A stretch of 64,000 nt of DNA from an uncultured Clostridia bacterium (GTDB taxonomy: Bacteria > Bacillota > Clostridia > Christensenellales > UBA1242), in NCBI GenBank assembly GCA_944381135.1, contig CALWJY010000015.1, positions 227,453 to 291,452 on the forward strand. The letters are read 5' to 3'. Of the stretch, positions 46,197 to 51,346 are shown piece after piece; positions within the stretch are counted from its first letter, which is position 1, and each line of letters begins with the position of its first letter. The notes beneath the pieces are model-generated. The model did not search any database and had not been told where the DNA came from. It saw nothing but the letters and a program-made list of their open reading frames with translations. The translations under genes and the position numbers were made by a program.

Positions 46197-46790
46197 TTAA
46201 ATTTCTTGACGGCTTTTCAACGCCTTTTCAAGTGTCACTTCATCGGCAAATTCAATGTCGCTTCCAATTGAAATGCCTTGTGCAAGACGCGTCACTTTCA
46301 CGCCCATAGGTTTGAGAAGTTTTGCAACATACATCGCCGTTGCCTCGCCTTCAACATCCGGGTTGGTTGCCATAATCACCTCTTGAACGCCGTTTTTCTG
46401 CACACGTGCAAGCAGTTCCTTGATTCGAATGTCATTTGGTCCTTTGTTTTCAAGCGGATTTATGCACCCAAACAGCACATGATAGACCCCATCAAAACTC
46501 TTAACTTTTTCCATGGAAATGATGTCCTTTGGCTCTTGCACCACACAAATCAGTTTTTGATTTCTTCGCTGACAAATTGGACAAATTTCGCTGGCGGAAT
46601 AGTTCCCGCACTCCTTGCAAAGTCTCACTTTTTCTTTCACATCCACAATTGCTTTGGCAAAATTTTCCGCTTTTTCTTTGCTGTTTTCAATGATGTGAAA
46701 AGCATAACGTTGGGCAGTTTTCTTGCCAACACCCGGAAGCGAACGGAAATATTCAATCAGTCTTTCAATTGGTTCTTCAAATTCACTCAT
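46197..46790 (-). CDS. recR: recombination protein RecR
   Basis: LIEYFRSLPGVGKKTAQRYAFHI HhH, CxxC...CxxC zinc finger, Toprim domain. Confidence 0.96.
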   Translation of the reverse strand: MSEFEEPIERLIEYFRSLPGVGKKTAQRYAFHIIENSKEKAENFAKAIVDVKEKVRLCKECGNYSASEICPICQRRNQKLICVVQEPKDIISMEKVKSFDGVYHVLFGCINPLENKGPNDIRIKELLARVQKNGVQEVIMATNPDVEGEATAMYVAKLLKPMGVKVTRLAQGISIGSDIEFADEVTLEKALKSRQEI

Positions 46791-46823
46791 CTTTGTCAGT
46801 TAAATCCTTTTAAAATCAATTCG

Positions 46824-47225
46824 TCAACAAGTTTTTTTGCTTTCCAAATCTTCAACAGGGATTGCATATCTTGAAGAAATGTCTTTCAATCTTTCTTCAA
46901 AAGAAACAAAATTTCCTTTGCTGTCAATGTGTTTAGCCCAATTCAAGATGTCAAGAAACTTGCTTTGATATGGACTTTTTGCGACACCATGAAAAGAAAC
47001 TTCTTTCCAATGAACATAGCCTTGTTTTTTCAGAAATTCTTCTCCCACTTTGTTGTGAAGAGAATAATTTTCCTTTTCAAGAAATGCATATCCAATGTCG
47101 TGCAAAAGTCCCAAAAGATAAAGATCATCGGCTTCTTGCTGAGAAAAACCTTTCTCCAAAGCGAACTTTCTCATAAGTTCTGCCACAGCCCAAATATGCT
47201 TCTTTCTGTTGTCGTCAATCGTCAA
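46824..47225 (-). CDS. small HD-domain protein (TTG start)
   Basis: H...LLGLLHDIGY HD motif. 133 aa. Lies between ybaB and recR. Confidence 0.75.
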   Translation of the reverse strand: MTIDDNRKKHIWAVAELMRKFALEKGFSQQEADDLYLLGLLHDIGYAFLEKENYSLHNKVGEEFLKKQGYVHWKEVSFHGVAKSPYQSKFLDILNWAKHIDSKGNFVSFEERLKDISSRYAIPVEDLESKKTC

Positions 47226-47241
47226 ATTCTCTCACATTTCC

Positions 47242-47553
47242 TTACATTATGTTTGGAAGTTTTGACCGCTCGTCAGCGGTGATTTTTGAAATGCAGTCAT
47301 TGACAGCAGACACCACCAAATCTTCCAACATTTCAACATCGTCTGGGTCCACAACCTCTTTCTTAATTCTGACCGCTTTCACAGTTTTGTTTCCAAGCAT
47401 TGTCACTTCAACCATGCCTCCACCCACAGAAGAGGTGTATTCCGTGCTGTCAATTTCTTCACGAATTCTCTTCATGTCCTCTTGCATTTTTTGTGCTTGG
47501 CGCATAAGTTGTTGCATGTTGCCACCGCCAAAACCACCAAATCCGTATGCCAT
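47242..47553 (-). CDS. ybaB: nucleoid-associated protein YbaB/EbfC
   Basis: NMQQLMRQAQKMQEDMKRIREEI...GGGMVEVTMLG. Confidence 0.95.
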   Translation of the reverse strand: MAYGFGGFGGGNMQQLMRQAQKMQEDMKRIREEIDSTEYTSSVGGGMVEVTMLGNKTVKAVRIKKEVVDPDDVEMLEDLVVSAVNDCISKITADERSKLPNIM

Positions 47554-47714
47554 AATTTCTCCCTCACTTTTTTTAATTTTTATTTAAATTTAATCAAGCC
47601 TCAACAAAACAACAAAAATTTTGCATTTTTAATACTTTTTTCTTAGAATTTTTCCGATTTTTTATTATTTTTTTGATTTTTTAACATTTTTTTGCACTCT
47701 AAAGTTTAAACAAA

Positions 47715-48092
47715 TCAATCTTCAATTTCAAGATTGTTTCCAAAGAATGCTCTCAGTTTTTTGATGTCTTTTTCAATTTTTTGTTCTTTGCTTTCAAACT
47801 TCACAACTTCAAATTTGAGGTCAAGTCCTTGCCACCGAATTGCCGTTTCAATGTCCTTTCGTCCGTTTTCCAGAACATCAATCAAAAAGTCATCGCTTGA
47901 GCGGATGATGAGTTTTCCATCCGCAATCACTGCGTTTGTGATGTCTCCACAAGCAACATGAAGTGCCACTTTCTTATGTTCTCGAAGATAGAGCACCACT
48001 TTTCCCCAAACATTGCTTGCCGAAACTTTTGTAAGGTCTCGCTCAATTTTCAGTTTTTTTTTACTTCCATGCCCAAAATTGCAGTCAGACAT
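47715..48092 (-). CDS. dnaX: DnaX (tau) C-terminal domain encoded in the -1 frame relative to dnaX; probably reached by a shift at the A9 run, not by independent initiation
   Basis: NVWGKVVLYLREHKKVALHVACGDITNAVIADGKLIIRSSDDFLIDVLE... fits the tau C-terminal pattern of Firmicutes. No SD before its ATG. Overlaps the dnaX 0-frame by 43 nt. Confidence 0.6.
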   Translation of the reverse strand: MSDCNFGHGSKKKLKIERDLTKVSASNVWGKVVLYLREHKKVALHVACGDITNAVIADGKLIIRSSDDFLIDVLENGRKDIETAIRWQGLDLKFEVVKFESKEQKIEKDIKKLRAFFGNNLEIED

Positions 48093-49153
48093 GTGGTTTC
48101 AAGCAAAAGTCTGACTGAAAGTGTGTATCTCAGTTCGCTTTCCGCACTTGAAAAGACTTGCATATATCTGATGAGGTCCTTTTCTTCAAACTCCTCAGCC
48201 TGTTTTGAATATCTCTCAAAAACATCGTCTGGCAAATTGAGAATTTCCTTTGCGTTGTTGCAAGACTTGCAAACAAGCAAATTTCGCGCATGTTTTGACA
48301 AATCTTTTGCAAAAACAGCCAAATTTTTGCCCTCTTTTTCAATTTTGTCAATCATGGACAAAACCGCACCAACCTCTTTTTCGTGAAATTTCTCGAAAAA
48401 GTCCAAAATCAAATCGTGGTCGGTTGTGCCAAGCACCTGCAAGGTTTTTTCTTTTGTCACATCGCCTTGAGAGAATGCCGCAATGCTGTCCGCAATTGAA
48501 AGAGTGTCACGCACACTGCCCTCGCCTGCACTTGCAATGATTTTCAAACTCTCCTCGTCATATTTGATGCTTTCTTTGTCAAAAACTTTGGCAAGATGGC
48601 GCGAAAGTTCTTCCACCGAAACAAGTCTAAAATCAAAACGCACACAGCGTGAAAGAATGGTTTGTGGCAGTTTGTGCACTTCCGTTGTTGCCAAAATGAA
48701 GATGACATATGGTGGTGGCTCTTCCAAAGTTTTCAAAAGAGCATTGAACGCACTGTCAGAAAGCATATGCACTTCGTCCACGATGTAGACCTTATATTTC
48801 GCCCCAACAGGCATAAACCTCACCTTTTCGCGAATTTGCCTGATGTCATCCACTTTGTTGTTTGAGGCCGCGTCAATTTCAATGATGTTGATGTCGTTTT
48901 CTTGCTCCAACCTCTTGCAGTTTTCGCACTCTCCGCACGCCGAACCATGAATTGGATGCAGACAGTTGACAGCCTTAGCAAAAATTTTTGCCACACTTGT
49001 CTTACCCGTCCCACGAGTGCCTGTGAAAAGATAGGCGTGTCCAATTTGGTCATGCTCAATCTGGTTTTGAAGTGTTCTTGTGATGTGTTCTTGCCCAATC
49101 ACATCTTCAAAACGCTTTGGTCGATATTTACGATATAATGCAACATGGTTCAT
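48050..49153 (-). CDS. dnaX: DNA polymerase III gamma/tau subunit, 0-frame product (domains I-III, gamma-like)
   Basis: YRKYRPKRFEDVIGQEH, GTRGTGKTS Walker A, Zn module CGECENC, DEVHML, SRC motif. Confidence 0.95.
   Translation of the reverse strand: MNHVALYRKYRPKRFEDVIGQEHITRTLQNQIEHDQIGHAYLFTGTRGTGKTSVAKIFAKAVNCLHPIHGSACGECENCKRLEQENDINIIEIDAASNNKVDDIRQIREKVRFMPVGAKYKVYIVDEVHMLSDSAFNALLKTLEEPPPYVIFILATTEVHKLPQTILSRCVRFDFRLVSVEELSRHLAKVFDKESIKYDEESLKIIASAGEGSVRDTLSIADSIAAFSQGDVTKEKTLQVLGTTDHDLILDFFEKFHEKEVGAVLSMIDKIEKEGKNLAVFAKDLSKHARNLLVCKSCNNAKEILNLPDDVFERYSKQAEEFEEKDLIRYMQVFSSAESELRYTLSVRLLLETTCLTAILGMEVKKN
48054..48062 (-). promoter_or_regulatory. A9 slippery run (A AAA AAA heptamer in the dnaX 0 frame)
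   Basis: Minus strand reads ATG GAA GTA AAA AAA AAC TGA, with nine consecutive A. Confidence 0.6.
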
Positions 49154-49216
49154 CTAAAATTTCTTCTCCAATTCTTCTGTCGAAAATACAAATTTCTTTC
49201 ATTTTTTATTTCAATT

Positions 49217-49966
49217 TTAATAGTTTTCTCTGCAAATCACTGCAAAGTTGTCAACATCCAAGCAAGCGCCACCAATCAAAGCCCCATCCAAAGCAGGATT
49301 GGAAATGATTTTTGCATAGTTGTTGATGTTTATGCTTCCACCATAAAGCACTTTGATGGAATTTCCCGCCTTTTCGGAATATTGCAACGCAATTTCTTTT
49401 CTGATTATTTCCACCATTTTGGCGATGTCGCTTTTTGTGGCAACTTTCCCTGTTCCAATTGCCCAAATTGGCTCGTAGGCAACAATCACGCTTTCAAGTT
49501 CGTTTTCATATATGCCTTTCAAATCGTCATCAATTTGTTTTCGCACAAATGCGCATGTTTGTTTGTTTTGTCTTGTCTGCAAACTTTCACCCACACACAA
49601 AATCACCTTAAGTCCACTTGCAAGTGCCGTCTTGATTTTTTTGTTGATGAGTTTGTCAGTTTCTTTAAACTTGGAGCGTCTTTCAGAATGCCCAATGATG
49701 ACATAGTTTGCGCCCGCGTCCTTAATCATTTTTGCGCTGATTTCACCAGTGAATGCGCCACTTTCCTCTTCAGAAATGTTTTGAGCGCCAACTTCAACCC
49801 TGCTTCCACCAAGAAACTCTCGCGCAACCGCAAGATGAGTGAATGGCGGACAAACAACAATGTCATTTTTGGAATTTTGAGTTTTGGTTGCAAGTGACAT
49901 TGCATATGCTTTAAATTCGCTTGGAACAGTGTTCATTTTAAAATTTCCAACAATCAGTTTTTTCAT
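49217..49966 (-). CDS. tpiA: triosephosphate isomerase
   Basis: GNFKMN, IIGHSERR, AYEPIWAIGTG. Confidence 0.97.
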   Translation of the reverse strand: MKKLIVGNFKMNTVPSEFKAYAMSLATKTQNSKNDIVVCPPFTHLAVAREFLGGSRVEVGAQNISEEESGAFTGEISAKMIKDAGANYVIIGHSERRSKFKETDKLINKKIKTALASGLKVILCVGESLQTRQNKQTCAFVRKQIDDDLKGIYENELESVIVAYEPIWAIGTGKVATKSDIAKMVEIIRKEIALQYSEKAGNSIKVLYGGSININNYAKIISNPALDGALIGGACLDVDNFAVICRENY

Positions 49967-50064
49967 TTTATGCTCCTTTCCAATTGTGTTGTTTTAAGAC
50001 TTTTCTCGCAACCTTTGTTGTGTTTCTCTTTACTTTTTCCTTTGCTAAAAAAATTTTTGTCACT

Positions 50065-51234
50065 TCAAATGCAATCAATCACTTCCACCGCTGGCAAAGG
50101 CTTTCCTTCCATAAGTTTCAAACTTGCACCGCCTCCGGTTGAAAGGTGGTTGATTTTGTCTGCAACTCCACACGCTTTGACTGCGCTGACGCTGTCTCCT
50201 CCCCCAACAATGGAATATGCTCCGCTTTTTGCAACTGCTTTTGCAATTTTCAGCGTTCCATTGCGGAATGCGTGGTCTTCATATTTCCCCATAGGTCCAT
50301 TCCACATGATTTGTTTTGCTTTCATGATTTCAGCAGCGAAAAGTTTGATTGTCTTTTTGCCTATGTCAAGAGCCATCATGTCACTCTTAAGTTCTGTCGT
50401 CTTGATTGGTCTGCCCTTTTCGCCAACCACGGCAACATGGTCGACAGGAAGCAAAATTTTGATTCCTCTCTCATCTGCTGTCCTTAAAATTGCTCTTGCA
50501 TTTCCAACTTGGTCCTCAGCCACAATTGAAACGCCGATGTTGATGTCTTTTGCCTGCAAGAAAGTGTATGCCATTGCTCCGCCAATGATGATGACATCGG
50601 CAACATTCATGACATTGTTTATGAGAGGCAATTTGTCCTCGACTTTTGCTCCGCCAAAAATTGCCACAAATGGATGAGATGGGTCTTTGAATGCTTTGTC
50701 AAAAACATTGAGTTCTTTTTGAATCAAGAAGCCAATTGCGCTTGGCATTTTAAGTGCAACGCCATAGTTTGACGCATGCTTTCTGTGAGCCACACCAAAA
50801 GCATCGTCAACATAGACATCTGCCAATTTGCAAAGTTGGTCAACAAATTTAGGGTCATTTTCTTCCTCGCCTTTGTTGAAGCGCAAGTTTTCCAGCACCA
50901 AAATTTCGCCGTCTTTCATTTTTGAAACGGCGTCATCCACTTCAAGTCCGACAACCTTACTGCAAAATTTGACTTTGTTTGGAAATTGCTTCATCAAAGA
51001 AACAGCCACCGGGAAAAGCGACAAAAACTTGTCATAACCTTTAGGCCTGCCAAGATGAGAACATATGATAAGTTTGCACCCAGCATTGTTGAGATAGGAA
51101 ATTGTTGGAATTGCTTGCACAATGCGGTTGTCGTCCAAAATGTCGCCCCAATTGTCAAGTGGAACATTGAAATCGCAACGCAAAAGCACTCTTTTTCCTT
51201 TCAAATCTTTCAAATCGCTTATTGTTCTTTTCAT
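50065..51234 (-). CDS. pgk: phosphoglycerate kinase
   Basis: RCDFNVPL, SHLGRPKG, GGGDS. Start set at the ATG at 51234 after AAGGATG. Confidence 0.96.
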   Translation of the reverse strand: MKRTISDLKDLKGKRVLLRCDFNVPLDNWGDILDDNRIVQAIPTISYLNNAGCKLIICSHLGRPKGYDKFLSLFPVAVSLMKQFPNKVKFCSKVVGLEVDDAVSKMKDGEILVLENLRFNKGEEENDPKFVDQLCKLADVYVDDAFGVAHRKHASNYGVALKMPSAIGFLIQKELNVFDKAFKDPSHPFVAIFGGAKVEDKLPLINNVMNVADVIIIGGAMAYTFLQAKDINIGVSIVAEDQVGNARAILRTADERGIKILLPVDHVAVVGEKGRPIKTTELKSDMMALDIGKKTIKLFAAEIMKAKQIMWNGPMGKYEDHAFRNGTLKIAKAVAKSGAYSIVGGGDSVSAVKACGVADKINHLSTGGGASLKLMEGKPLPAVEVIDCI

Positions 51235-51346
51235 ATCCACATCCTTTTTTACATTTTACAACATTTCAGAAGCAAAAGCAAAACAAAAAGTCAAACATTT
51301 TCAAATTTTAATTTCAACGTTGTTTTTTCGAAGGGTAATTTCAAGT

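What the first reader, a model, noticed from the sequence alone, without database searches (positions are those of the whole stretch)
47715..49153. dnaX is split at an A9 run: standard decoding gives a gamma-like protein and a -1 shift is needed for full-length tau
**What the sequence shows**
- The dnaX 0 frame (clamp-loader domains I-III) reads ...ATG GAA GTA AAA AAA AAC TGA and stops at 48050.
- ORF 47715..48092 is in the -1 frame, since (49153-48092) mod 3 = 2. It overlaps dnaX by 43 nt and has no Shine-Dalgarno sequence before its ATG.
- Its product (NVWGKVVLYLREHKKVALHVACGDITNAVIADGKLIIRSSDDFLIDVLENGRKDIETAI...) has the W-x2-V...L...A...L-I...F pattern I associate with the C-terminal domain of Firmicute tau.
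- The natural junction between the two frames within their overlap is the run of nine A (48054-48062). In the 0 frame this is the X XXY YYZ heptamer A AAA AAA.
- A -1 slip, or one extra A in the mRNA, gives ...GMEVKK-KLKIERDLTKV... and a tau of about 477 aa.

**Why it is unusual**
- E. coli dnaX uses A AAA AAG to make the SHORT gamma by frameshifting.
- Thermus uses an A9 run with slippage, also to truncate.
- Here the topology is inverted: the default product is short and recoding would make the long one.

A homopolymer assembly error is the trivial alternative.
Basis: partly seen in the sequence, partly recalled or inferred. Interest (0 to 1): 0.8.

Follow-up and report, generated by a model that had tools for sequence, protein, structure and literature searches.

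The report
Conserved A9 slip site splits dnaX
In this uncultured gut Clostridia bacterium and at least 79 related species, the clamp-loader gene dnaX is split by a run of nine A's, so normal reading makes a short gamma-like protein and a one-base slip is needed for full-length tau; this layout is real and was known in other phyla, but I found no report of it in Bacillota.

Summary
On the minus strand, dnaX reads GTA AAA AAA AAC TGA and stops at 48050, giving 367 aa (domains I-III). The -1 frame continues from the A9 run (48062-48054) for 115 more codons.

It is not an assembly error. The same A9 occurs in seven loci read from independent samples. It also occurs in 79 of 80 species-representative genomes of related uncultured Clostridia (Ca. 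Caccovivens, GTDB family UBA1242), whose DnaX identity falls to 64%. One species has A10 and an in-frame gene.

The downstream frame usually has no start codon and opens one codon before the run. It is under purifying selection (dN/dS 0.12). It is fused in frame to DnaX in outgroup relatives. Its model gives weak fold matches to the KH-type II group that includes DnaA domain I, DciA and tau domain V.

All nine A's are invariant, which is more than a single slippery heptamer needs, and no flanking RNA structure is conserved. I therefore favour transcriptional slippage over -1 ribosomal frameshifting.

This reversed layout, with tau made by recoding, was described in 2013 for Chlorobi, Bacteroidetes and Verrucomicrobia. 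This case is a new member of a known kind, in a new phylum and currently unannotated.

The parts
48050..49153 (-). dnaX 0-frame ORF. It encodes a 367-aa gamma-like product (clamp-loader domains I-III) ending ...GMEVKKN*.
   Evidence: Searches give the sequence and ORF. Pfam hits are DNA_pol3_delta2, DNAX_ATPase_lid and DNA_pol3_gamma3. NCBIfam NF004046 scores 509.9 bits against a cut-off of 400, and TIGR02397 dnaX_nterm scores 455 bits.
48054..48062 (-). A9 homopolymer, the slip site. It is in phase with the -1 frame (AAA AAA AAA = KKK). In the 0 frame it reads (GT)A AAA AAA AA(C).
   Evidence: All nine positions are A in 80 of 80 aligned sequences (79 related species plus the window). It is the only A/T run of 9 nt or more in the window.
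48050..48067 (-). Extended conserved motif GAN G[TC]A AAA AAA AAC T[GA]A. It includes the 0-frame stop TGA at 48052..48050, directly after the run.
   Evidence: Per-column counts: C at +9 and T at +10 in 80/80; +11 is G in 68 and A in 10, so the stop is adjacent in 78/80; the wobble A of the preceding Val/Ala codon is present in 80/80.
47715..48062 (-). Tau-specific coding region in the -1 frame: 115 codons (KKKLKIERDL...NNLEIED) plus the stop at 47717..47715. It is reachable only by a -1 shift or by an mRNA carrying one extra A.
   Evidence: Median dN/dS is 0.12 over 1392 species pairs, while the other two frames contain stops in all pairs. This frame opens only one codon before the run in 44 of 81 loci, and 42 of 81 have no ATG.
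47733..48020 (-). Predicted globular C-terminal domain (residues 15-110 of the -1-frame segment) with alpha-alpha-beta-beta-alpha-alpha-beta-alpha order. Its weak fold matches point to a KH type II-like domain as in tau domain V.
   Evidence: AlphaFold2 model with mean pLDDT 77.7. Foldseek hits are DnaA domain I (4tps, 2e0g, 2jmp), DciA (8a3v, 7ykm) and the E. coli tau C-terminus (5fkv_E, 2aya). PMC8216460 groups these three as one KH type II fold.
47715..49153 (-). The complete recoded dnaX gene. It yields tau of 479 aa (54.6 kDa) from an A10 transcript or a -1 shift, and gamma-like products of 367-370 aa from A9, A8, A11 or A12 transcripts.
   Evidence: In-silico products for A6 to A13.

Best explanation
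This is programmed recoding of dnaX at a conserved A9 tract placed exactly at the end of clamp-loader domain III. Faithful transcription and translation end at the adjacent TGA and give a 367-aa gamma-like DnaX, which can assemble the clamp loader but lacks the C-terminal module.

On a fraction of transcripts, RNA polymerase realigns on the nine-A tract and adds one A (or removes two, or adds four). Ordinary translation of those mRNAs then continues into the -1 frame and gives a 479-aa tau. Tau carries a roughly 95-residue domain with weak fold matches to the KH type II group that includes tau domain V, the module that binds the replicative polymerase in E. coli. A contribution from -1 ribosomal slippage on A_AAA_AAA or A_AAA_AAC cannot be excluded.

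**Shown:** the sequence layout, its conservation, purifying selection on the second frame, the usual absence of an independent start, and in-frame fusion in outgroups.

**Inferred:** that both proteins are made, that slippage happens mainly at the RNA polymerase, the tau:gamma ratio, and what the C-terminal domain binds.
For: 1. **Not an artefact.** A9 is identical in seven loci read from independent ENA/Logan samples (14 contigs carry the identical downstream ORF). It is also present in 79 of 80 GTDB species representatives, with DnaX N-terminal identity down to 64% and C-terminal identity down to 47%.
2. **Selection at the nucleotide level.** All nine A's, the following C and the following T are 100% conserved.
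   - The wobble base of the preceding Val/Ala/Ser/Thr codon is always A.
   - The Lys codons are never AAG.
   - An AAC-to-AAT change would be silent in both frames, yet it never occurs.
3. **The second frame is translated but cannot start on its own.** Its dN/dS is 0.12, against 0.11 for domain III. It opens one codon before the run in 44 of 81 loci, 42 of 81 have no ATG, and protein conservation begins at KKKL.
4. **All homologues appear as split ORFs.** The 120 listed (best of 365) homologues of the C-terminal segment are all stand-alone ORFs of 83-125 aa. So are nearly all of 121 cluster representatives at 50% identity; 19 of the 57 with enough upstream sequence begin ...KKKL/I....
5. **A more distant group shares the site.** It has a roughly 190-aa second ORF and different upstream gene neighbours, yet two loci carry the same GTA AAA AAA AAC TAA and a third has GAA AAA AAA AAC TAA, an A10 run that is still out of frame.
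6. **The domain belongs to DnaX.** It sits in frame at the C-terminus of DnaX in P0155, P0228, P0240, P0281 and P0282.
7. **Slippage at RNA polymerase is favoured over the ribosome.**
   - The full 9-nt run is conserved, although either heptamer alone needs only 7.
   - RNAalifold finds no conserved pairs up- or downstream, and no conserved SD-like element is evident in the conservation profile.
   - The in-frame relative L092 has A10 with stops in both alternative frames, which is the Thermus-type slippage layout.
8. **Precedent.** Antonov 2013 proposed transcriptional realignment for reversed dnaX genes with A7-A10. Runs of 9 A's or T's give mRNAs with extra bases in bacteria (Atkins 2016). 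C. rodentium tssM1 is a proven case of the same logic.
Against: - There is no RNA or protein evidence. Neither transcript heterogeneity nor the two products can be observed with these tools.
- A9 followed by C also forms two overlapping, correctly phased -1 slippery heptamers (A_AAA_AAA and A_AAA_AAC) with a 0-frame stop adjacent in 78 of 80. A ribosomal mechanism is therefore not excluded.
- Slippage by a Clostridial RNA polymerase on A9 has not been measured.
- The C-terminal segment has no HMM-level similarity to curated tau models. The Foldseek matches are weak: E = 0.009 for DnaA domain I and 0.3-0.5 for E. coli tau.
- One species (L063) shows A10 and is in frame.
Confidence: 0.65

Rival explanations
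1. Purely translational -1 programmed ribosomal frameshifting. Ribosomes slip on A_AAA_AAA or A_AAA_AAC, possibly helped by slow decoding of the adjacent stop codon, and all transcripts carry A9.
For: - The heptamers are in the correct phase in all 80 aligned sequences, and a 0-frame stop follows directly in 78 of 80.
- A_AAA_AAC and A_AAA_AAA are proven bacterial shift sites in IS elements, one of them without a known stimulator (PMC4066793).
- Atkins 2016 describes reversed dnaX cases as frameshift-derived tau with the gamma stop directly after the shift site.
Against: - No conserved downstream stem-loop or pseudoknot was found, and no conserved upstream SD-like element is evident. E. coli dnaX needs such stimulators for about 50% efficiency.
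- AAG, the most shift-prone A-site codon in E. coli, is never used.
- All nine A's are invariant, although one heptamer would suffice.
- The in-frame A10 relative has stops in both other frames, which suits bidirectional transcript slippage.
Confidence: 0.22
2. A genuinely split gene. Gamma-like DnaX and a separate C-terminal protein of about 110 aa are made as two polypeptides, the second by termination-reinitiation at a non-canonical codon (ATT or CTG) just after the dnaX stop, and they associate in trans.
For: - The stop and the beginning of the conserved second-frame sequence overlap tightly.
- ATT (or ATG in a few species) lies 15 nt after the start of the run in most species.
- Gene callers annotate two ORFs everywhere.
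Against: - No conserved start codon exists. The first NTG lies anywhere from -33 to +177 nt relative to the run, and 42 of 81 loci have no ATG.
- No SD-like sequence is evident.
- Protein conservation starts at KKKL, upstream of the ATT.
- The model does not explain why nine A's and their wobble positions are invariant.
- Two of the three distant-group loci read CTA ATA AAT after the run, with no plausible start.
- The domain is covalently fused to DnaX in outgroups.
Confidence: 0.05
3. An artefact or DNA-level variation. The true genome would carry A10 (a homopolymer assembly error), or the tract would phase-vary between A9 and A10 in the population.
For: - Homopolymers are error-prone in sequencing.
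- One species representative (L063, Ca. Caccovivens faecavium) has A10 and a single ORF.
- One database protein (P0121) looks like a variant with other indels.
Against: - The same A9 was recovered by many assemblers and projects, in seven loci of this species and in 79 of 80 other species.
- The fused A10, A7 and A8 versions of this exact protein are absent from a collection of about 15 billion proteins.
- A systematic error would not leave flanking synonymous sites free to vary while the run stays fixed.
Confidence: 0.03
4. A decaying gene. A frameshift mutation has truncated dnaX and the downstream frame is a remnant on its way to loss.
For: Small-genome, host-associated bacteria do accumulate poly(A) frameshifts, as in the Buchnera and Blochmannia cases cited in Atkins 2016.
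Against: - The second frame is intact in all 81 loci.
- Its dN/dS is 0.12, the same as the upstream dnaX region (0.11).
- The site is conserved across lineages that share only 47% C-terminal identity.
Confidence: 0.01

Closest known systems
Reversed-type dnaX (recoding required for tau) of Chlorobi, Bacteroidetes and Verrucomicrobia; Antonov et al. 2013, NAR 41:6514 (PMC3711429)
   Same: - dnaX spans two adjacent ORFs with a -1 frameshift at the DNA level.
- A poly-A tract lies at the junction: A10 in nine genes, and A9, A8 and A7 in three others.
- The gamma stop lies in the 0 frame just after the site, and tau needs recoding.
- Transcriptional realignment was proposed as the mechanism.
- None of those genes was annotated in RefSeq.
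   Different: - The phylum differs: Bacillota/Clostridia, GTDB Christensenellales family UBA1242.
- The tract here is strictly A9 followed by C, not mostly A10 followed by G.
- The tau-specific part is very short (115 aa, one domain).
- Conservation is documented here over 79 species plus a more distant group.
- Whether the origin is independent was not tested phylogenetically.
Thermus thermophilus dnaX (A9 transcriptional slippage), as described in Antonov 2013 and Atkins 2016
   Same: - A run of nine A's in dnaX near the boundary between the gamma part and the tau-specific part.
- Slippage by RNA polymerase gives a mixed mRNA population and two proteins.
   Different: - In Thermus, tau is the single-ORF default product and the slipped transcripts give gamma. 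Here the roles are exchanged.
- The in-frame relatives L092 (A10, stops in both alternative frames) and L063 (A10) are in frame; L092 clearly shows the Thermus-type layout.
Escherichia coli dnaX -1 programmed ribosomal frameshift
   Same: The same gene produces two products that share domains I-III. The shift is in the -1 direction on an A-rich heptamer.
   Different: - E. coli uses A_AAA_AAG with an upstream SD-like element and a downstream stem-loop, and the shift gives the short gamma.
- Here the codons are AAA AAA AAC, no conserved stimulators were found, and the shift gives the long tau.
Citrobacter rodentium tssM1 (A11) transcriptional frameshifting; Gueguen et al. 2014 (PMC4256274)
   Same: The gene is prematurely interrupted just after a poly-A run. 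Slippage adds A's and restores the C-terminal domain. Experiments showed that both length variants and their ratio are needed.
   Different: It is a different gene (type VI secretion), has a longer tract (A11), occurs in Proteobacteria and has been experimentally verified.
Poly(A) frameshift rescue in the endosymbionts Buchnera and Blochmannia (cited in Atkins 2016)
   Same: Frameshifted genes at poly(A) tracts are partly rescued by polymerase infidelity.
   Different: From my own knowledge, not checked here, those cases are sporadic and lineage-specific lesions. Here the tract, its length and its frame are conserved across at least 79 species under purifying selection, which indicates a programmed feature.

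Membership tests
DnaX clamp-loader ATPase (gamma/tau; TIGR02397 dnaX_nterm, NF004046) | An N-terminal AAA+ module, a lid and domain III scoring above the curated cut-offs | tested here: met
   NF004046 scores 509.9 bits (cut-off 400) and TIGR02397 scores 455 bits (cut-off 250) for the 367-aa ORF. Pfam finds DNA_pol3_delta2, DNAX_ATPase_lid and DNA_pol3_gamma3.
Reversed-type recoded dnaX (Antonov et al. 2013) | The domains I-III ORF ends at or just after a poly-A tract, and the continuation lies in the -1 frame | tested here: met
   The sequence reads GTA AAA AAA AAC TGA and the second frame is +2 (= -1).
Reversed-type recoded dnaX (Antonov et al. 2013) | The position and direction of the frame change are conserved among orthologues | tested here: met
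   79 of 80 species have A9 at the same codon with the same -1 relation. A distant group has the same site.
Reversed-type recoded dnaX (Antonov et al. 2013) | The second ORF encodes the tau-specific C-terminal part rather than an independent gene | tested here: met
   Most species have no start codon and dN/dS is 0.12. The domain is fused in frame to DnaX in P0155, P0228, P0240, P0281 and P0282.
Reversed-type recoded dnaX (Antonov et al. 2013) | Both products, or heterogeneous mRNA, are actually produced | not testable with these tools
   This needs RNA or protein data from an uncultured organism or from a reporter construct.
E. coli-type dnaX -1 PRF cassette | The A_AAA_AAG slippery heptamer | tested here: not met
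   The site is A_AAA_AAA / A_AAA_AAC, and AAG never occurs in the 80 aligned sequences.
E. coli-type dnaX -1 PRF cassette | An upstream SD-like stimulator and a downstream stem-loop | tested here: not met
   RNAalifold on 41 sequences predicts no pairs in the 70 nt downstream or in the 70 nt upstream. No conserved SD-like motif is evident in the conservation profile.
Thermus-type dnaX transcriptional slippage | A homopolymeric run of about 9 A's in the dnaX coding sequence | tested here: met
   The A9 run at 48062..48054.
Thermus-type dnaX transcriptional slippage | Tau is encoded in one ORF and slipped transcripts give gamma | tested here: not met
   Here the unslipped product is the short one. 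The Thermus arrangement is seen only in relatives: clearly in L092 (A10, stops in both alternative frames), and L063 is also A10 and in frame.
Tau domain V (polymerase-binding C-terminal domain; Pfam DNA_pol3_tau_5, PDB 2AYA) | Sequence match to the curated family or to solved tau C-terminal domains | tested here: not met
   There is no Pfam or NCBIfam hit at E <= 1. A PDB profile search returns only chance-level hits. Adding the C-terminal part raises the NF011523 score by only 1.3 bits.
Tau domain V (polymerase-binding C-terminal domain; Pfam DNA_pol3_tau_5, PDB 2AYA) | The KH type II fold shared with DnaA domain I and the DciA N-terminal domain | tested here: inconclusive
   The model has pLDDT 77.7. 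The top Foldseek hit is DnaA domain I (4tps: E 0.009, target-normalised TM 0.70-0.73, rmsd 2.4 A). DciA (8a3v, 7ykm) and E. coli tau (5fkv_E, 2aya; E 0.3-0.5) also appear. This trio is the set that PMC8216460 calls one fold, but the scores for tau itself are weak.
Tau domain V (polymerase-binding C-terminal domain; Pfam DNA_pol3_tau_5, PDB 2AYA) | Binding to the replicative polymerase (Pol III alpha or PolC) | not testable with these tools
   This needs a biochemical interaction assay.

The most novel reading that the evidence does not exclude
A family-to-order-level clade of uncultured gut Clostridia, plus a more distant group with a longer linker, would have independently evolved a dnaX in which gamma is the genetic default and tau exists only through RNA-level slippage on an invariant A9 tract.

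That would make it the first Bacillota lineage shown to need both DnaX forms. The tau:gamma stoichiometry of the replisome would then be set by RNA polymerase slippage frequency, and could respond to transcription conditions.
Probability: 0.5. Interest if true: 0.6.

Novelty: new member of a known kind. Interest (0 to 1): 0.45.

Why it matters
- **Annotation.** In every related genome examined, pipelines call a truncated DnaX plus a 'hypothetical protein'. The essential polymerase-tethering form of the clamp loader is therefore missing from annotations of a whole clade of gut Clostridia.
- **Biology.** From my own knowledge, not checked here, Gram-positive bacteria are generally thought to make only tau. 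An arrangement that makes gamma the default and is conserved over 79 species argues that both forms are selected there as well. That bears on the long-running question of whether gamma has a function of its own.
- **Evolution.** dnaX recoding would now be known in another phylum. The A9 (reversed) and A10 (Thermus-like) layouts occur in related lineages, which illustrates how one base can swap which product needs recoding.
- **Mechanism.** An invariant A9 tract without any conserved stimulator is a clean natural substrate for testing slippage by a Clostridial RNA polymerase.

Tried and rejected
- **Pfam and NCBIfam scans of the C-terminal segment** gave no meaningful hit. Comparing scores with and without the segment showed that it adds only 1.3 bits to any tau model.
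- **A PDB sequence-profile search** gave only chance hits, such as proteasome subunits.
- **A bridging search** with the C-terminal domains of three in-frame relatives was meant to reach named tau proteins of cultured Firmicutes. It returned only three unnamed fragments. Two of them are further in-frame DnaX fragments, but no link to cultured organisms was obtained.
- **An Rfam scan of the whole window** gave no matches.
- **RNAalifold** on the 70 nt upstream and downstream of the run found no structure.
- **An exact look-up of the A10, A7 and A8 fusion products** in the 15-billion-protein collection found none. There are therefore no assembled DNA or RNA variants to examine.
- **A cluster look-up to name the organism** returned no names.
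- **Rejected explanations:** alternative genetic code (TGA read as Trp), because the 0 frame hits further stops soon after; independent initiation of the second ORF; and pseudogene decay.
- **Checked for similar sites:** no other A8/T8 run in the window sits at a junction of two same-strand ORFs.
Full report
**1. The observation**

On the minus strand, an ORF runs from 49153 to 48050. It encodes 367 aa ending ...LGMEVKKN*, read as ATG GAA GTA AAA AAA AAC TGA.
- The homopolymer is exactly nine A's (48062-48054) and starts at the wobble position of GTA.
- A second ORF, called 48092-47715, lies in the +2 (= -1) frame and overlaps the first by 43 nt.
- One extra A fuses the two frames into a 479-aa, 54.6-kDa protein reading ...GMEVKKKLKIERDL.... 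Transcripts with A9, A8, A11 or A12 all end within four codons and give products of 41.7-42.1 kDa.
- The first ORF is an unambiguous DnaX with domains I-III. NF004046 scores 509.9 bits against a cut-off of 400, TIGR02397 scores 455 bits, and Pfam finds DNA_pol3_delta2, the lid domain and gamma3.
- The window has 38.6% G+C, and this is its only A/T run of 9 nt or more.

**2. Not an assembly error**

The identical 125-aa second ORF occurs on 14 contigs. The seven loci read, from independent ENA and Logan samples, all have A9.

A scan of one genome per GTDB species returned 80 loci from uncultured gut Clostridia MAGs, several of them labelled Candidatus Caccovivens. GTDB places that genus in Christensenellales, family UBA1242 (PMC8035907).
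- In 79 of the 80, the dnaX 0 frame ends at an A9 tract and the C-terminal homology continues in the -1 frame. DnaX identity to the window falls to 64%, and C-terminal identity falls to 47%.
- The exception is L063 (Ca. Caccovivens faecavium), which has A10 and a single ORF.
- In an ungapped alignment anchored on the run, all nine A's, the following C and the following T are invariant in 80 of 80 sequences. Codon positions nearby vary freely: position -3 reads C30/T24/A21/G5.
- The wobble base of the preceding Val/Ala/Ser/Thr codon is always A, and AAG is never used for Lys.
- An AAC-to-AAT change would be silent in both frames, yet it never occurs.
- The 0-frame stop (TGA in 68, TAA in 10) follows directly in 78 of 80.
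- In 411 kb of flanking DNA from these species there are only nine other runs of 9 nt or more, none of them a sense-strand A-run.

**3. The second frame is a translated part of DnaX, not a separate gene**
- In 44 of 81 loci the -1 frame is closed by a stop one codon before the run.
- The first ATG, GTG or TTG lies anywhere from -33 to +177 nt relative to the run, and 42 loci have no ATG at all. Even so, amino-acid conservation begins at KKKL(K/T/N)I.
- Nei-Gojobori dN/dS for 90 codons after the run has a median of 0.12 over 1392 pairs. The 90 dnaX codons before the run give 0.11. The other two frames contain stops in every pair.
- The 120 listed (best of 365) homologues of the C-terminal segment are all stand-alone ORFs of 83-125 aa. 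In the ORFs called long, the residues before KKK are unconserved, as expected for an out-of-frame reading of dnaX.
- An exhaustive HMMER profile search of 1.84 billion cluster representatives found 121 hits, nearly all short ORFs. Of the 57 with enough upstream sequence, 19 start ...KKKL/I....
- A more distant group has a second ORF of about 190 aa: a low-complexity linker followed by the same domain. Its upstream neighbours differ (rnc-spoU-sigma-dnaX-ybaB). Two of its loci still read GTA AAA AAA AAC TAA, and a third reads GAA AAA AAA AAC TAA, an A10 run that is still out of frame.
- The domain is fused in frame at the C-terminus of DnaX in several relatives:
  - P0155 / L092 reads GTC AAA AAA AAA ATA, an A10 run with stops in both alternative frames.
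  - P0228 / L093 has no A-run.
  - P0240, P0281 and P0282 are also fused, with no KKK at the junction.

**4. What the C-terminal segment is**

No Pfam, NCBIfam or PDB sequence match exists. The Firmicute DnaX equivalog matches only residues 3-359, and the segment adds 1.3 bits to the one tau model whose alignment spans it.

An AlphaFold2 model (pLDDT 77.7) has the order helix, helix, two strands, a kinked helix pair, a strand, then a helix. Foldseek against the PDB returns:
- DnaA domain I first (4tps: E 0.009, target-normalised TM 0.70-0.73, rmsd 2.4 A), along with 2e0g and 2jmp;
- DciA (8a3v, 7ykm);
- the E. coli tau C-terminal domain (5fkv_E, 2aya, 5fku_E; E 0.3-0.5).

Marsin et al. 2021 report that exactly these three (the DnaA N-terminal domain, the DciA N-terminal domain and DnaX domain V) share a KH type II fold (PMC8216460). 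Together with the in-frame relatives, this makes the segment a minimal tau-specific module. The similarity to tau domain V itself is weak, and its binding partner is an inference.

**5. Mechanism**

Two mechanisms fit the layout: RNA polymerase slippage that adds an A, and -1 ribosomal slippage on A_AAA_AAA or A_AAA_AAC. I favour slippage at RNA polymerase for four reasons.
- All nine A's are invariant, although either heptamer needs only seven. For example, an AAG at positions 6-8 would be silent in the tau frame, yet it never occurs.
- RNAalifold on 41 diverse sequences predicts no conserved pairs in the 70 nt on either side, and no conserved SD-like element is evident. E. coli dnaX depends on both kinds of stimulator.
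- The in-frame A10 relative L092 has stops in both alternative frames, the signature of the Thermus slippage arrangement (Atkins 2016).
- Runs of 9 A's or T's are known to give transcripts with extra bases in bacteria. The same default-short, slipped-long logic has been proven for C. rodentium tssM1.

A ribosomal contribution cannot be excluded. The heptamers are always in phase, a stop is adjacent, and A_AAA_AAC works in an IS element without a known stimulator. The efficiency, and therefore the tau:gamma ratio, is unknown.

**6. Comparison with what is known, and novelty**

The reversed layout is already published. Antonov et al. [quoted passage not shown]
- They found 17 genes from 12 genera.
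- Twelve had poly-A tracts: nine with A10, and one each with A9, A8 and A7.
- The taxa named in the text and Figure S3 are Chlorobi (Chlorobium, Prosthecochloris, Pelodictyon, Chloroherpeton), Bacteroidetes (Flavobacterium, Cytophaga, Capnocytophaga) and Coraliomargarita.
- They proposed transcriptional realignment. Atkins et al. 2016 reviewed these cases.

Full-text searches found no report in Clostridia or Bacillota. The present case is therefore a new member of a known kind.

What this case adds is a new phylum, a strict A9-C signal, a very short tau, the breadth of conservation, and coexistence with A10 in-frame and run-free in-frame relatives. None of these loci is annotated as recoded.

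**7. Verdict**

The finding is real and correctly interpreted. It is a robust, unannotated case of programmed recoding in an essential replication gene, but the principle is not new. No RNA or protein evidence is available, and the organisms are uncultured.
- Interest: 0.45.
- Confidence that both gamma and tau are made by recoding at this site, by either mechanism: about 0.87.
- Confidence that RNA polymerase slippage is the main route: about 0.65.

Noticed in passing
L063:2515-2524 (DVLK01000080.1, Candidatus Caccovivens faecavium): This is the only one of 80 species representatives with A10 instead of A9, which gives an in-frame dnaX. Its closest relatives (L054, L057, L058, L060) have A9. 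It is either a real one-base reversal of the layout or a homopolymer error in that MAG.
   Followed up: partly
L092:625-634 (JGI 3300014204, Ga0172381_10094173): A more distant in-frame DnaX reads GTC AAA AAA AAA ATA ACT GAA, an A10 run. A9 would give an immediate TAA, and A11 would give a stop two codons later. This is a Thermus-like arrangement (tau by default, gamma by slippage) in the same protein family.
   Followed up: partly
L088:2965-2973, L090:2965-2973, L089:3018-3027: A divergent group has a second ORF of about 190 aa (a low-complexity linker plus the same C-terminal domain) and different upstream neighbours (RNase III, SpoU methylase, sigma factor). L088 and L090 read GTA AAA AAA AAC TAA; L089 reads GAA AAA AAA AAC TAA, an A10 run that is still out of frame. 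The recoding site therefore seems older and wider than the Caccovivens-like clade.
   Followed up: partly
window 1-64000: An Rfam scan at gathering thresholds found no RNA family at all in 64 kb: no tRNA, riboswitch, leader or sRNA.
   Followed up: no
window 46197-51240 (minus strand): The gene order pgk - tpiA - dnaX(split) - ybaB - HD-domain protein - recR (- argS in relatives) is conserved in the seven same-species loci. A small HD-domain gene sits between ybaB and recR, within what I recall as the usual dnaX-ybaB-recR cluster.
   Followed up: no
P0121 (149 aa): This database protein begins MSYRNFGVWSKKTENWSWQ... and rejoins the family at KVALHVACGD. It looks like an A8 version of the site followed by a second indel, probably a low-quality contig. 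No DNA was available to check.
   Followed up: no
L014:4614, L015:4151, L016:5123, L032:4097, L035:3924, L044:1896, L054:4045, L061:3894, L077:519: These are the only other homopolymers of 9 nt or more in 411 kb of flanking DNA from the 80 species. All are T-runs on the dnaX-sense strand. I did not check whether they are intergenic or terminator tracts.
   Followed up: no
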